Assembly (NCBI GenBank): GCA_951406725.2
Contig: OX597819.1
Location: forward strand, 118,668,001-118,732,000
Origin: Octopus vulgaris
Lineage: Eukaryota
Reading direction: 5' to 3'
Length of the DNA: 64,000 nt
Position numbers: made by a program. Position 1 is the first letter of the stretch. Each line of letters begins with the position of its first letter. Positions 39,001-45,000 of this stretch are shown in pieces.

Positions 39001-42000
39001 AAATGCTTCTTGTGCAAGGAGACACACGATTTATTTGCAATACTTTACTCAAGTTCCTTCTGGTCATGGAACCATTCAAAATAAAGACATTTCAGTTCGG
39101 ATGCAATTTGAAGTAATATTTTTCAACGACTTTTCTGCTTGATACTCCTTGCATCTATAAGTGTTTCTGCAGTTTTTTCCTATTATTTGTAGTGTTTTTC
39201 GTTTTCATAGTCCTGGGAGATATCAAAACTCATCTCAGCCTAGAAGTGTTAATACCTTTCTTTGTATTTTCGAAATATTTTGTTTTCGTGGAATGTTTAT
39301 TTCGCCAATCGTAAGAGCAGAGTCAATACGCTTTAAATTTTGGGTTTCCCATTTCATATTTGTGTAATATATTTTCATAAATAATATCATATCCAACCCA
39401 CAAATTGTTGCAGTACAACAGCTTCACAAATTTTGAACTTTTGAATTTTGTTACACTAAACTTTTGGAAGCAAAATTACCATGCCAATGTAACTCAAAAA
39501 TCTATGCGATACTTTATTCACAAGAACATTTACGTCGTTATTAAATTTGATGCCTGTCAGGAACGAGAGGGTTGTATTCAAACTGTAATAACATACATTT
39601 GGATGGTTTTACTGAGAATTAACTTTGCTAAACCTACTCACAGTGTAACACATCTTAAAGTCACATCTTTCAATATCTCTTTAGGTACTTATCAGTTATA
39701 ATCAAAATTCGGCAATATTCACTGCTTCAGCGTATTTAGTAGCACAACATTATGAGCATGCTACGTTTAGTAATCTGCTGCTCTAACATTTTATGAATAT
39801 TCATTCTGTGTACCAAATCTTCTGGTGTGAAAAATGAAGAAGGTTTCCCATCTAAGGATGAATTTCTCTGTTGAAAAAAGTTCAATTCCATGTCCTAAAT
39901 TTACACATATTGCCTCAAAGATTACGTTTTACGTGTCGTTACATATCTTTTAGTTGTATCGTTCACTAACGTAGCTGCAGTATTTTACCTGTTTATTAAA
40001 CATATAATTCATTGGTAACTTTTCTATGAAAAAAGTAATGAATTTACTGGAATTGAAATCAGAGAAATAAACACAGGCGTAGCTCTGCAGATACGAGGCC
40101 TTCGTTGCAATCAGGTGGTTACTGTTTTACGCATACCACGCAGCAACTTGCGCAAATGTCTCCTACTATAACTCCAAGCAACCAGAGCCTCAACAGGGAA
40201 TTTGATGTACGGAAGCCTGACTTGTATATGTTTGAATGTGTATGTGCGTGTGTATATGTGTGTTGGTGTGCTGTATGTATGTTTTATGTGTGTATATATA
40301 TATATATATATATATATATATATATATATATATATATATATATATATATATATATATATATATATATATATATATATATATATATATATATATATATATA
40401 TATATATATATATATATATATATATATATATATATATATATATATATATATATATATATATATATATATATATATATATATATATATATATATATATATA
40501 TATATATATATATATATATATATATATATATATATATATATATATATATATATATATATATATATATATATATATATATATATATATATATATATATATA
40601 TATATATATACAATATATATATATACATATATATATATATATATATATATATATATATATATATATATATATATATATATATATATATATATATATACAT
40701 ATATATATATATATATATATATATATACACATATATATATATACACATATATATATATATATATATATATATACATATATATATATATATATATATATAT
40801 ATATATATATATATATATATATATATATATATATATATATATATATATATATATATATATATATATATATATATATATATATATATATATATATATATAT
40901 ATATAAATAGGCCACTTGGTGTGGAATAAATATACTATTAAATTAGTATCTAATTCTCTCACCTTATTAATTAATTATATATATATATATATATATATAT
41001 ATATATATATATATATATATATATATATATATATATATATATATATATATATATATATATATATATATATATATATATATATATATATATATATATATAT
41101 ATATATATATATATATATATATATATATATATATATATATATATATATATATATATATATATATATATATATATATATATATATATATATATATATATAT
41201 ATATATATATATATATATATATATATATATATATATATATATATATATATATATATATATATATATATATATATATATATATATATATATATATATATAT
41301 ATATATATATATATATATATATATATATATATATATATATATATATATATATATATATATATATATATATATATATATATATATATATATATATATATAT
41401 ATATATATATATATATATATATATATATATATATATATATATATATATATATATATATATATATATATATATATATATATATATATATATATATATATAT
41501 ATATATATATATATATATATATATATATATATATATACATATATATATATATATATATATATATATATATACATAATATATATATATATAACTTAGAATA
41601 ACTTAGAAAGGTTTTTGGCCAGTATTGGCCCAGGCCATGTCTAACTTAATAGCACCACCTGGCGAAGTCTGTCAGTTCAGGATTTGGGCACCAAGGCCCA
41701 TTCGAGCAGAGAGCTATTGTTTGCGGAGACATATCCGGGTGTGGATGGTTTGTCCGGTACTGTTTGAAGGAATTTGTCCAAAGACTTCTTGAATTTTGTG
41801 TGGTCAGTTTCTTTTTTGACGTGTCCTGGTGTAATGTTGAAGAGAGCAGGTCCAATTGAGGTGAAATAGTTGTGCCGTATTGTCGTTATGTGATGCGATT
41901 TAGATTTTTGTTGTGGACGGATGGCACGTGGTCCAAGCCTTGGATGCATTTTGAAGGTGATGCCAACATCATTCGGACAGTGCTGATGGAATATTTTCCA

Positions 42001-45000
42001 CATCATACAGATAATGTAGCGTTCACGGCGTCGTTGGAGTGAATACAATTTCAGCTTCTCTAGTCTACCCCAGTAGTCAAGGTCTGACATGCCATCTATC
42101 TTTTTTTGTGATTGACCTTTGGGGAGCTTCAATTCTCATAATATTTTGTTTTGTGTAGGGAGACCACAGTGGACAGCAGTATTCAAGGTGGGGTCGGGCA
42201 AAAGTGGAGAAGAGAAGGATAATAGCGTGGGAATCTTTCGACTGGAAGGTTCTGAGAATCCAGGAACACCTTCTGCGGGCCATGTCAACTTTGCTGCTTA
42301 TATGTGTAGCCCAGCTTATGTTGTTGTCCACTGTTACTCCCAGGTCTCTGATGTTGTTGGATGCCATGAGAATTTCTCCAGAAGGAAGAGAGTATGGGAG
42401 TTTCAGAGCGTCCTCCCTTCCAAAGTGGATCAGTTCGAATTTGTCTTCATTTAGCAACATGTTATTCTTTTCCGCCCATTGGACAACAGCTAGTAGGTCT
42501 GACTGAAGGTTTATTCGGTCATCCACGCCATTGATGACCTTCTGGAGCTTGGAATCATCAGCGAAGGTTCTGATGTTGCTGTGTTTGATGGTGTCAGTAA
42601 TATCATTTATGTAGATGATGAAGAGAAGTGGGCCCAACACAGTGCCTTGTGGGACACCACTGCTGACTTTGGCTGGGCTGGATTTGACTCCTTCGACTAC
42701 AACATGTTGGGTTCTGTTAGAGAGGAAGCACTTGATCCATTGCAGCAGCTTTCCAGTGACACCAATATTGGACAGCTTTCTCAGAAGGATCTTATGATCA
42801 ACCCTGTCAAAGGCCTTGCTGAAATCAAGGTAGATGACATCAGTGTTGGAACCCTCTCCCAAGGCTCTCAAAATGTCATCAAAATGATGCAGTAGCTGCG
42901 TCAGGCAATCTCTCCCATTACGGAATCCATGCTGGTTGGGGTTCAGCATATTATGACTCTCAAGGAAGTGAGTCATACGCGATCTCAGCACCCTCTCAAA
43001 TACCTTGATGATATGAGAGGTGAGTGAGATTGGACGGTAATTCACGGCAAGCGATTTGTTTCCTTTTTTGAAAACTGGGACAACAGACTGGGATAGAAGG
43101 TCTTCTGGTATATATCCAGCATCCAATGAGTTCCGCCACAGATTGGCTAGAGGGGGTGCAAGTTGGTTTTGACACATCTTCAAGACACAAGCAGGGAACC
43201 TATCGGGACCTACTGCTGAATTATGCTTCATTTCCTTTATTGCTGCTAAGACATCAGGAGCGCCAAATGTTATATACATACATATATATATATATATACA
43301 TATATATATATATATATATATATATATATATATATATATATATATATATATACATATATATATATATATATATACATATATATATATATATATATACATA
43401 TATATATATATATATATATATATATATATATATATATATATATATATATATATATATATATATATATATATATATATATATACATATATATATATATATA
43501 TATATATATATATATATATATATATATATATATATATATATATATATATATACACATATATATATATATACACATATATATATATATATATATATATATA
43601 TATATATATATATATATATATATATATATATATATATATATATATATATATATATATATATATATATATATATATATATATATATATATATATATATATA
43701 TATATATATATATATATATATATATATATATATATATATATATATATATATATATATATATATATATATATATATATATATATATATATATATATATATA
43801 TATATATATATATATATATATATATATATATATATATATATATATATATATTAAGTGTAGGAAAGAATGGAGCTGAACGAAGATTTAACAAAATTCCTTT
43901 ATTTTATATTCGACATATGTTTCGAAGTCTGCAAAGTCCCTAATTCCGATTGAATAAGGAGTCCATTTTGCAGCTCTCTCTTCAGGAAAATCCAGGAACT
44001 TAATTCTCCAACAAAATGCACAGCAAGCTTTTCGACAAACGCTCACGAGAAGCCCATGAAATTAATGACCTCGTGAGCGTTTGTCGAAAAGCTTGCTGTG
44101 CATTTTGTTGGAGAATTAAGTTCCTGGATTTTCCTGAAGAGAAAGCTGCAAGATGGACTCCTTATTCAATCGGAATTAGGGACTTTGCAGACTTCGAAAC
44201 ATAGGTCGAAAGTAAAATAAAGGAATTTTGTTAAATCTTCGTTCAGCTCCATTCTTTCCTACACTTAATATATATATATATATATATATATATATATATA
44301 TATATATATATATATATTCATACACATAAAACATACATACAGCACACCAACACACATATACACAGGCACACACACACATTCAAACATATACAAGTCAGGC
44401 TTCCGTATATCAAATTCACTGTTGAGGCTCTAAGGCACGGATTTTATGCCCCATGGTCGTAACTTCCTTCAACCGTGCTCTTTCTGTTGTGATTTTTGCT
44501 ACCCAGGTATCGGTTATCATTTGAATTATCCGTAATAAGAGTATTCATTTATCTACTTCAATAATATATATATATATATATATATATATATATATATATA
44601 TATATGTATGTATATATGTTTGTATATATATATATATATATATATATATATATGTATGTATATATGTTTGTATATATATATATATATATATATATATGTA
44701 TATATATATGTTGGTATATATATATATATATATATGAATGTATATATGTATGCATAAATATGTGTATGCCGTAGTGTCTATTTTTCTCCAGCACTGCTTA
44801 ACAATCGCTGATATTTTGACGAAAGAAAACGATTGAGTCACTATCAGACTGAAAATTAAAGATGTACAAGAAGCCTTTTCTACGATTAAAGCGTTCAAGG
44901 CGGTGCTTCACATGACCGCACTGAAATGATTGCTAAATCTGAAAGAAAATAAATAAATAAATGAAATATGGCAAAACTTCCTCGAAAGTGTATTTCCCTA

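What the first reader, a model, noticed from the sequence alone, without database searches (positions are those of the whole stretch)
40184..44431. Palindrome extends past the element into host flank: about 110-bp inverted copy of target-side DNA
Seen: 40184-40291 is the reverse complement of 44322-44431. Removing the later CR1 and expanded TA leaves one palindrome: flank-(TA)n-PLE arm, loop, PLE arm-(TA)n-flank. The left flank is part of an old decayed SINE that continues leftward, so the right copy is derived. Inference: synthesis folded back on nascent cDNA and ran through the junction into chromosomal DNA, or sister chromatids fused. This would be a footprint of how PLE inverted ends form and shows they can duplicate host sequence in inverted orientation.
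Basis: partly seen in the sequence, partly recalled or inferred. Interest (0 to 1): 0.75.

Follow-up and report, generated by a model that had tools for sequence, protein, structure and literature searches.

The report
Retroelement palindrome that copied host flank
A short retroelement lodged in a (TA)n tract inside an old SINE forms a palindrome whose symmetry continues 110 bases into the SINE, most simply because a new DNA strand folded back and copied itself and its neighbour; similar fold-backs are known for other retroelements, so it is a modest curiosity.

Summary
40184-40291 is the reverse complement of 44322-44431 (104 of 110 aligned columns). Nothing else in the window matches its unique part.

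A SINE family profile built from three intact copies in the window shows that one old SINE spans the locus: head 40073-40216, tail 44785-44946, both on the + strand. The head runs unbroken across the repeat boundary at 40184. The right copy starts abruptly at profile position 115.

The inner arms (197 nt, 5 differences) carry a complete but sub-threshold type I hammerhead motif pointing outward. This gives partial support to the Penelope-like (PLE) label. No PLE protein domain was found in the 150 window ORFs scanned.

Inner and outer arms are about equally diverged (Fisher p = 0.73), as expected if about 357 nt was copied in one inverted pass.

Sequence alone cannot say whether a reverse transcriptase did this at integration or DNA repair did it later. 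Snap-back into nearby target DNA is already documented for R2. The genome-wide copy-number test could not be run.

The parts
40073..40216 (+). Head of an old, diverged SINE copy (family profile positions 4-147). It runs continuously across the repeat boundary at 40184.
   Evidence: nhmmer with a head profile built from 3 intact window copies: E = 1.6e-8, 29.7 bits. First seen as a 68.5% match to 11854-11782.
40184..40291 (+). Outer left arm, the ancestral copy: the last ~33 nt of the SINE head plus the SINE's TG/TA-rich internal microsatellite.
   Evidence: Reverse complement of 44322-44431, 104 of 110 columns.
40292..40905 (.). (TA)n tract T1, 614 bp, with CA-type interruptions.
40906..40975 (.). 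70-bp non-(TA) insert of unknown origin, present only in the left half and therefore later than the palindrome.
   Evidence: Read directly. No other copy in the window.
40976..41590 (.). (TA)n tract T2, 615 bp.
41591..43270 (-). 5'-truncated LINE fragment (reverse transcriptase). Its 3' end at 41591 carries a 10-bp unit repeated twice next to (TA)n. It sits only in the left half, so it is a later insertion.
   Evidence: Pfam RVT_1 E = 1.5e-31 on 42077-43270(-). Best database relatives are 57% identical and carry an AP-endonuclease domain plus RVT_1; named hits are bird and turtle proteins at 38-40%. Clade not tested.
43271..43852 (.). (TA)n tract T3, 582 bp.
43853..44049 (-). Inner left arm: 5'-truncated retroelement 'E', sense on the minus strand, with its 3' end at 43853 next to (TA)n. 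Hammerhead-like motif at 43906-43991(-).
   Evidence: 192 of 197 identical to the right arm. Motif found by the relaxed pattern scan. Not reported by Rfam for this arm at E <= 1.
44050..44069 (.). 20-nt loop, the centre of symmetry and turn-round point.
44070..44268 (+). Inner right arm: element E in sense orientation, 3' end at 44268 next to (TA)24. Type I hammerhead motif at 44128-44213(+).
   Evidence: Rfam Hammerhead_1 covers the full model 1-45 at 18.7 bits (cut-off 34), E = 0.05-0.09 in narrow searches. All core positions are present in the printed alignment.
44269..44318 (.). Pure (TA)24-25 between the right inner arm and the derived flank copy.
44322..44431 (-). Outer right arm, the derived inverted copy of 40184-40291. 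It covers SINE head profile positions 115-147 only and then stops.
44432..44563 (.). 132-bp unique spacer 'Z' between the derived copy and the downstream microsatellite. Origin unknown.
   Evidence: Not SINE by nhmmer. No significant match in the window (best E = 0.007).
44564..44767 (.). (TA)n/(TATG)n tract with TG-type interruptions, the downstream remainder of the SINE's internal microsatellite.
44785..44946 (+). Tail of the same old SINE (profile positions 6-186).
   Evidence: nhmmer tail profile: E = 1.3e-5, 20.0 bits.

Best explanation
An old SINE on the + strand has an internal TG/TA microsatellite, as do its intact relatives. A short retroelement E, which carries a hammerhead motif and is probably PLE-derived, was inserted there by target-primed reverse transcription from the upstream (TA)n end. 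Its cDNA became the top strand of the left arm.

At about 217 nt the 3' end of the new strand folded back, leaving a 20-nt loop, and was extended using itself as template. This made the right arm. Synthesis did not stop at the cDNA/primer junction. It ran on through about 25 TA units and 110 nt of the SINE strand that had served as primer, producing an inverted copy of host DNA. That end was then joined to downstream DNA at 44431/44432.

Later, the left (TA)n expanded and received a 70-bp insert and a LINE fragment.

Shown:
- the geometry of the locus
- that the left flank is ancestral and the right flank derived
- that E is foreign to the SINE
- that inner and outer arms are about equally diverged

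Inferred:
- that copying was a single pass
- that the polymerase was the element's reverse transcriptase acting at integration
For: 1. The right arm's outer neighbour is a copy of the upstream DNA, not the ancestral downstream DNA. The SINE head is continuous at the left copy and cut at profile position 115 in the right copy. Ordinary two-strand priming therefore cannot give this structure. A continuous inverted copy of arm + (TA)n + flank (197 + 50 + 110 nt) can.

2. Paralogous 'empty sites': in 3 of 3 intact family copies the head and tail are 45-99 bp apart and separated only by microsatellite. Here they are 4568 bp apart (coordinates; alignment). E, Z and the LINE are therefore insertions.

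3. Divergence is 5/197 for the inner arms versus 4/108 plus one 2-bp indel for the outer arms (Fisher p = 0.73).

4. The centre of symmetry sits at the 5'-truncated end of the copy whose 3' end is attached to ancestral DNA, with only a 20-nt loop.

5. A hammerhead type I motif lies in both arms, oriented 3'-outward, about 60 nt from the (TA)n-proximal end.

6. Literature (passages read):
- PLEs carry type I hammerheads in their terminal repeats (PMC4209133).
- PLEs form inverted 5'-truncated copies, and Naiads target (TA)n (PMC8557442).
Against: - This is a single locus. The other 3 of 4 (TA)n-bounded fold-backs in the window have no symmetric flanks.
- The hammerhead hit is below Rfam's cut-off (18.7 versus 34 bits). 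It was absent from the 6.6-kb search at E <= 5 and from the left arm at E <= 1. My strict pattern missed it. The relaxed pattern that finds it was written after I had seen the sequence.
- No PLE reverse transcriptase or GIY-YIG domain was found in the 150 window ORFs scanned.
- A purified PLE protein nicks and extends both strands (PMC11167929). That explains PLE inverted copies without any fold-back and makes a pre-existing inner palindrome plausible.
- The 132-bp spacer Z at the junction is unexplained.
- Sequence cannot tell a reverse transcriptase from a repair polymerase.
Confidence: 0.45

Rival explanations
1. Two-step, DNA-level fold-back. E first inserted as an ordinary PLE-type head-to-head pair (arm-loop-arm) with (TA)n on both sides. 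Later a break in the fragile right-hand (TA)n was resected. The 3' tail annealed within its own strand through the pre-existing arms and the self-complementary (TA)n. A repair polymerase then extended it 110 nt into the SINE, and the end was rejoined downstream. A replication U-turn at the inverted repeat is a variant of the same idea.
For: - The final structure is the same as in the best explanation.
- A PLE protein nicks and extends both strands in vitro (PMC11167929, main text read), so inner palindromes are the expected starting state.
- The fold-backs 5250-9739 and 20603-20799 share one asymmetric pair of ends (an extra ~70 nt at one end only). This fits two alternative initiation sites better than snap-back.
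- (TA)n pairs with itself in either orientation.
- Hairpin-mediated foldback inversions and short templated inverted insertions at breaks are described in yeast (PMC7467729, PMC11724301; abstracts in the listing only).
Against: - The outer arms are not younger than the inner arms: 3.7% plus an indel versus 2.5%. The test has low power, however.
- It needs two rare events at one site.
- Independent 5' truncation of two cDNAs would not be expected to give arms differing by only 20 nt.
- Templated inverted insertions reported at breaks are mostly 5-34 bp (PMC11724301, abstract), not 110 or more.
Confidence: 0.33
2. The whole of 40184-44431 is one mobile fold-back element with long composite terminal inverted repeats (110 bp + (TA)n + 197 bp). 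On this view the '110 bp' is element sequence, not host sequence.
For: - Another inverted repeat in the window, 5317-6135 versus 8974-9739, has long arms that contain unique sequence and internal (TA)n tracts (145 of 146 in the unique part). Composite arms therefore exist in this genome.
- The 8 bases outside the two arms match at 5 of 8 positions (read).
Against: - The outer left arm is collinear with a SINE head that continues 111 nt further left. The tail of the same SINE lies beyond the right arm. The arm is therefore host SINE DNA.
- 5 of 8 is not a target-site duplication at about 4% divergence.
- The outer ends do not abut (TA)n, whereas all four inner fold-backs do.
- There is no second copy of the arm or of the 39-nt unique part in 64 kb.
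Confidence: 0.06
3. The right outer arm is an independent event rather than a fold-back. Either it is a second 5'-truncated SINE copy inserted in the opposite orientation, or it is a read-through (3'-transduction) transcript of the left copy reinserted next to its parent.
For: - The SINE family is abundant: at least 8 head or tail fragments in the window at E <= 1e-4.
- PLE endonucleases are reported to cut within their own copies (PMC11167929).
Against: - The two copies are 95% alike, including the degenerate TG-rich microsatellite, whereas other family members match this head only weakly: the best in-window match is 68.5% identical and the profile hit scores 29.7 bits.
- No SINE tail lies on the minus strand to the left of 44322.
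- A reinserted copy would have to end within 20 nt of its parent's truncated 5' end.
- PLE reverse transcription starts inside the RNA, which argues against 3' transduction (PMC11167929).
Confidence: 0.05
4. Assembly artefact: a chimeric fold-back read created the right half.
For: Palindromes and long (TA)n tracts are hard to assemble. This is stated for PLE structures in PMC8557442.
Against: - The arms differ by 9 substitutions and an indel in total.
- The two halves differ by 3.5 kb of later insertions and by (TA)n length, 50 versus 582 bp or more.
- Artefactual fold-backs would be near-identical mirror images.
Confidence: 0.03

Closest known systems
Snap-back 5' junctions in R2-protein target-primed reverse transcription (PRINT; PMC11371274, passages read)
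   Same: The cDNA 3' end primes further synthesis complementary to the cDNA, and less often to nearby target DNA, before the 5' junction forms. The result is antisense element sequence next to the junction.
   Different: That is an engineered R2 system in human cells at rDNA, read from fresh junctions. Here we have an old germline fossil of a different element type in a (TA)n tract. The run into target DNA is 110 nt plus 50 nt of (TA)n, and the polymerase is unknown.
Penelope-like element insertions with an adjacent inverted 5'-truncated copy (PMC8557442, passages; PMC11167929, main text)
   Same: Head-to-head arms with 3' ends outward. Insertion in (TA)n (Naiads) or AT-rich DNA. A hammerhead-type motif near the terminal repeat. 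Frequent 5' truncation.
   Different: In the passages I read, the described structures end at the element or its 30-40-bp 'tail', and no inverted copy of host flank is mentioned. No PLE ORF was found in this window's scanned ORFs. The hammerhead here has an unusually long helix II (55 nt including the closing G-C pair; a 51-nt insert relative to the Rfam model).
L1-mediated fold-back inversion in tumours (PMC7058536, passages read)
   Same: A retrotransposition event bridges DNA in head-to-head orientation and duplicates host sequence in inverted orientation.
   Different: There it joins sister chromatids and duplicates megabases, leading to breakage-fusion-bridge cycles. Here the copy is 110 bp and interstitial.
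Hairpin-mediated foldback inversions and templated inverted insertions at DNA breaks in yeast (PMC7467729, PMC11724301; abstracts only, from the listing)
   Same: A single-stranded 3' end folds back on its own strand and is extended, giving an inverted duplication with a short spacer.
   Different: No retroelement is needed. Reported templated insertions are mostly 5-34 bp. This is the basis of the main rival explanation.
L1 twin priming (recalled, not looked up)
   Same: It explains inverted retroelement segments formed during integration.
   Different: It inverts a different part of the RNA and does not make a palindrome or copy host flank.

Membership tests
Penelope-like element (or PLE-derived non-autonomous element / non-LTR retrozyme) | ORF with a PLE-type reverse transcriptase and a GIY-YIG endonuclease | tested here: not met
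   150 of 256 stop-to-stop ORFs of 70 aa or more (those with sequence entropy above 3.4) were scanned against Pfam. The only match above its cut-off is RVT_1 of the LINE fragment, and there is no GIY-YIG. A 217-nt 5'-truncated or non-autonomous copy would not carry the ORF anyway.
Penelope-like element (or PLE-derived non-autonomous element / non-LTR retrozyme) | Type I hammerhead ribozyme in the terminal repeat | tested here: inconclusive
   Rfam Hammerhead_1 covers the full model at 44128-44213(+): 18.7 bits against a cut-off of 34, E = 0.05-0.09. The core CUGAAGAG...CGAAAC...GUC, the G10.1-C11.1 pair and a 6-bp helix I are present. In the left copy, helix III is 2 bp capped by AUAU, matching the short palindromic helix III described in PMC4209133. 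It was not found at the gathering threshold, in the 6.6-kb search or by my strict pattern. The relaxed pattern finds only the two arms; 1 of 1000 null sequences gave a hit.
Penelope-like element (or PLE-derived non-autonomous element / non-LTR retrozyme) | Head-to-head inverted 5'-truncated copies with 3' ends outward, inserted in AT-rich or (TA)n DNA | tested here: met
   The arms are 43853-44049 and 44070-44266, motif strand - and + respectively, both abutting (TA)n.
Penelope-like element (or PLE-derived non-autonomous element / non-LTR retrozyme) | Repeated in the genome | not testable with these tools
   There is no other copy in the 64-kb window. No eukaryotic genome collection was available.
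Snap-back product of target-primed reverse transcription | An antisense copy of the cDNA directly after its 3' end, continuing into the primer-side target DNA in inverted orientation | tested here: met
   Continuous inverted copy of arm (197) + (TA)n (50) + SINE flank (110), with a 20-nt loop.
Snap-back product of target-primed reverse transcription | Made by the element's reverse transcriptase during integration | not testable with these tools
   Equal arm divergence is compatible with this but does not exclude a later repair event.
DNA transposon or fold-back element with long terminal inverted repeats | Target-site duplication outside the repeats; ends independent of host sequence | tested here: not met
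   The 8 bases outside the arms match at 5 of 8 positions. The left end lies inside a continuous SINE head alignment.
SINE (the family with copies at 11530-11930, 25600-26065 and 28985-29400) | Collinear match to the family head and tail with an internal microsatellite between them | tested here: met
   Head E = 1.6e-8 at 40073-40216(+); tail E = 1.3e-5 at 44785-44946(+).
SINE (the family with copies at 11530-11930, 25600-26065 and 28985-29400) | tRNA-related head or pol III boxes | tested here: not met
   ARAGORN found 0 genes in the window. Rfam gave no tRNA hit. A B-box-like stretch in the intact copies is my own reading, not a test.
   Only RVT_1 and relatives carrying AP-endonuclease + RT were seen. 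Named hits are bird and turtle proteins at 38-40% identity.

The most novel reading that the evidence does not exclude
Some PLE inverted ends are made by the reverse transcriptase snapping back on its own cDNA rather than by priming on both target strands. This synthesis can run through the cDNA/primer junction by strand displacement. PLE integration would then occasionally write inverted duplicates of host DNA (here 110 bp of a SINE) and seed host-sequence palindromes at (TA)n tracts.
Probability: 0.3. Interest if true: 0.6.

Novelty: new member of a known kind. Interest (0 to 1): 0.4.

Why it matters
How Penelope-like elements acquire their tandem and inverted ends is still described as undefined (PMC8557442). 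The one in vitro study points to nicking and extension of both strands (PMC11167929).

A locus where the palindrome continues into ancestral upstream DNA cannot be produced by two-strand priming alone. It needs a strand that copied its own side of the break. If the step happened at integration, it is a natural example of the snap-back products seen with R2 protein in cultured cells (PMC11371274). It would also show that such products survive in a germline.

It would further be a small-scale route by which retroelements create host-sequence palindromes next to fragile (TA)n tracts.

As it stands, this is one locus with a plausible repair-based alternative. Its value is as a search image for a genome-wide count rather than as proof.

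Tried and rejected
- **Rfam at gathering thresholds, whole window:** 0 matches.
- **Rfam E-value search of 39000-45600:** only generic hairpin (miRNA-model) hits far below cut-offs and no hammerhead at E <= 5. I discount the miRNA hits as the expected response to any long perfect hairpin.
- **ARAGORN:** 0 tRNA-like genes.
- **First hammerhead pattern:** it required 4 of 4 pairs closing helix II and found nothing, not even the candidate. The call before it timed out.
- **Host identification through the LINE protein:** the best relatives are unnamed records, and the cluster look-up gave only a ctenophore name for one member. The host was not established and I did not pursue it. The SINE looks to me like one I recall from cephalopods; this is untested. 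I read passages of a shrimp simple-repeat paper for context only and draw no conclusion from it.
- **hAT-like ends and an 8-bp duplication for the outer arms:** 5 of 8, or 0 of 8 if the arm is one base longer. Rejected (read).
- **Are the three ~600-bp left (TA)n tracts inverted copies of each other?** Their interruptions are all CA-type on the + strand, so they share polarity and are not mirror images.
- **Is the spacer 44432-44563 SINE tail or related to anything in the window?** No.
- **ORF 26450-27892(-):** no Pfam match and no homologue.
- **Not used:** the prokaryotic genome collection, the phage, plasmid and E. coli collections, structure prediction and complex prediction. None bears on non-coding animal repeats.
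- the metagenome and viral collections.
- **Literature gap:** a search pairing 'Penelope-like' with snap-back, fold-back, foldback or template switching returned 206 papers with at least two terms. None of the 15 listed contained 'Penelope-like'. I found no printed description of a PLE palindrome running into host flank, but this is one search of an open-access library. No supplementary files were opened.

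
Full report
**1. Observation**

The region was read directly. 40184-40291 pairs with 44431-44322 with 104 matches, 4 substitutions and one 2-base indel over 110 columns. In-window blastn gives 94.5% identity, E = 1.5e-44.

- The first 39 bases are unique sequence and match 37 of 39.
- The rest is TG/TA-rich. It resembles many places in the window at no more than 83%, but its partner at about 95%.
- Against 200 shuffles the inverted-flank score is 91 versus a null maximum of 12.
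- The inner palindrome is 43853-44049 versus 44266-44070: 192 of 197 matches, no indel, with a 20-nt loop.

**2. Which flank is original**

A sensitive in-window search gave a weak match of 40143-40214 to a repeat with several copies in the window. That repeat has three intact copies at 11530-11930, 25600-26065 and 28985-29400, all on the minus strand. Each consists of a head of about 164 bp, an internal (TA)n(TG)n microsatellite and a tail of about 210 bp.

Profiles of head and tail were searched over the window.

- The head hits 40073-40216 on the + strand (profile positions 4-147, E = 1.6e-8).
- The tail hits 44785-44946 on the + strand (positions 6-186, E = 1.3e-5).
- The head alignment runs without interruption across 40183/40184, which is profile position 114/115.
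- The right copy matches only positions 115-147 (E = 0.8 on its own) and is followed by unrelated sequence.

In the three intact copies, head and tail are 45-99 bp apart. Here they are 4568 bp apart (coordinates). So one old SINE spans the locus. Everything from the (TA)n to 44784 lies in its internal microsatellite. The left copy is ancestral and the right copy is derived.

It also serves as a paralogous 'empty site'.

At both substitutions in the unique part, the right copy keeps the family-consensus base. This shows only that the two copies descend from one sequence.

The tRNA origin of the SINE was not confirmed.

**3. What the inner arms are**

The arm sequence is absent from the SINE family and from the rest of the window. 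It is therefore an insertion.

No PLE protein domain was found. Of 256 stop-to-stop ORFs of 70 aa or more, the 150 with non-trivial composition were scanned. Only the LINE's RVT_1 passes a Pfam cut-off.

Rfam finds nothing at gathering thresholds. When only the palindrome is searched, however, Hammerhead_1 (type I) aligns over its full model at 44128-44213(+), with 18.7 bits against a cut-off of 34 and E = 0.05-0.09.

The printed alignment shows these features:
- the core CUGAAGAG, the closing G-C pair of helix II, CGAAAC and GUC
- a 6-bp helix I
- an unusually long helix II (a 51-nt insert relative to the Rfam model)
- in the left-arm copy, a helix III of 2 bp capped by AUAU

The last feature matches the short, palindromic helix III described for animal and PLE hammerheads (PMC4209133, passages).

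Results against the hammerhead call:
- It was not listed in the 6.6-kb search.
- It was not listed for the left arm.
- My first, stricter pattern missed it.
- The relaxed pattern was written after I had seen the sequence. It hits only the two arms in 64 kb; 1 of 1000 first-order Markov sequences gave a hit.

The motif points 3'-outward in both arms and lies about 60 nt from the (TA)n-proximal end. This resembles the geometry in the anole PLE, where reverse transcription starts about 90 nt downstream of the hammerhead cut site (PMC11167929, main text).

A second, unrelated (TA)n-bounded palindrome at 4353-5183 has Hammerhead_HH9-like hits in both arms, again pointing outward. Its core is degenerate.

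Taken together, the PLE or PLE-derived label is reasonable but not proven.

**4. Age and order of events**

The inner arms differ at 5 of 197 sites. The outer arms differ at 4 of 108 sites plus one 2-bp indel. Fisher p = 0.73.

The test has little power.

The LINE fragment and the 70-bp insert occur only in the left half and are therefore later. The LINE fragment is RVT_1, E = 1.5e-31, and its relatives carry an AP-endonuclease domain plus RT.

The right (TA)n is a pure 24-25 units. The left tracts are 614, 615 and 582 bp.

**5. Mechanism**

The right arm is attached not to ancestral downstream DNA but to a copy of upstream DNA. Two-strand priming, which a PLE protein can do in vitro (PMC11167929), therefore cannot by itself give this structure.

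The simplest account is one continuous inverted copy of arm, (TA)n and 110 nt of SINE (about 357 nt), turning at the 20-nt loop and rejoined downstream at 44431/44432.

I favour snap-back of the nascent cDNA at integration (confidence 0.45), for three reasons:
- The turn-round is at the truncated 5' end of the copy whose 3' end is joined to ancestral DNA.
- The loop is tiny.

The main rival (0.33) takes two steps. An ordinary PLE head-to-head insertion comes first. Later, a break in the fragile right (TA)n is followed by annealing within the strand through the existing arms and the self-complementary (TA)n, then fill-in and end joining. Sequence alone cannot separate the two.

Minor rivals are argued against in their own sections: a composite fold-back transposon, an independent SINE insertion or 3' transduction, and mis-assembly.

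The 132-bp spacer at 44432-44563 remains unexplained.

**6. Comparison within the window**

The window holds 66 (TA)n tracts. I compared the 150-bp flanks of 224 pairs of (TA)n tracts lying up to 4.5 kb apart. Only two pairs scored high. One is the target pair (91). The other (143) lies inside the arms of another large inverted repeat, 5317-6135 versus 8974-9739.

Four fold-back structures are bounded by (TA)n: 4353-5183, 5250-9739, 20603-20799 and 43853-44268. Only the target has symmetric flanks beyond the (TA)n (1 of 4).

The pair 5250-9739 and 20603-20799 shares the same asymmetric ends, with about 70 extra nt at one end only. This recalls the PLE 'tail' (PMC8557442, PMC11167929) and fits two initiation sites better than snap-back.

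The target is therefore an exception in this window, not the rule. It cannot be taken as the general origin of PLE inverted ends.

**7. Novelty and limits**

Fold-back copying at retroelement integration is known for R2 (PMC11371274) and for L1 in tumours (PMC7058536). DNA-level foldback inversions are well described (listing).

My searches found no printed description of a PLE palindrome that runs into host flank. They cover an open-access library only, and I opened no supplements.

The decisive test is whether the 39-nt unique flank accompanies other copies of the element. The host organism was not established.

Noticed in passing
window 5250-9739 and 20603-20799: A 4.4-kb structure bounded by (TA)n has inverted arms 5317-6135 and 8974-9739 (145 of 146 in the unique part). 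It shares both termini with a 197-bp fold-back at 20603-20799 (long arm 135 nt, 4-nt loop, short arm 62 nt). Both carry about 70 extra nt at the left end only, reminiscent of the one-sided PLE 'tail'.
   Followed up: partly
window 4353-5183: Another (TA)n-bounded palindrome (arms of about 260 nt, 307-nt loop containing GAA/GAT repeats). Hammerhead_HH9-like hits lie in both arms at 4390-4454(-) and 5076-5140(+), about 22.7 bits against a cut-off of 52. The core is degenerate (UUGAAAAG).
   Followed up: partly
window 40292-40905, 40976-41590, 43271-43852: Three (TA)n tracts of about 600 bp each, where the longest tract elsewhere in the window is 224 bp. All carry CA-type and never TG-type interruptions on the + strand. 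The LINE fragment (sense on the minus strand, 3' end at 41591) and the left arm of E (3' end at 43853) each abut the tract to their left. The tracts may have arrived or grown as tails of the inserted elements; this is speculation.
   Followed up: partly
window 43906-43991 / 44128-44213: All 5 substitutions between the 197-nt inner arms fall inside the 86-nt hammerhead-like motif (helix II, loop 3, helix I) and none in the conserved core. Clustering this tight has a chance of about 0.016 under uniform placement.
   Followed up: no
window 44432-44563: A 132-bp unique spacer lies between the derived flank copy and the downstream microsatellite. It is neither SINE nor element E, and its origin is unknown.
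   Followed up: partly
window 11530-11930, 25600-26065, 28985-29400 and fragments: A SINE family with a built-in (TA)n(TG)n microsatellite between head and tail. At least 8 head or tail fragments occur in 64 kb at E <= 1e-4. In one copy the internal (TA)n has already expanded (25600-26065).
   Followed up: partly
window 26450-27892 (-): A 481-codon open frame with a CCHC zinc-knuckle-like stretch. It has no Pfam match and no homologue in the protein search. It may be a gag-like ORF1 of an unclassified retroelement.
   Followed up: partly
window 24219-24616: A MITE-like element with 78-bp terminal inverted repeats (91% identical), not associated with (TA)n.
   Followed up: no
window 1-64000: 66 separate (TA)n tracts of 16 bp or more in 64 kb. 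GC content is 24-42% in 4-kb bins. The genome is extremely rich in simple repeats.
   Followed up: no
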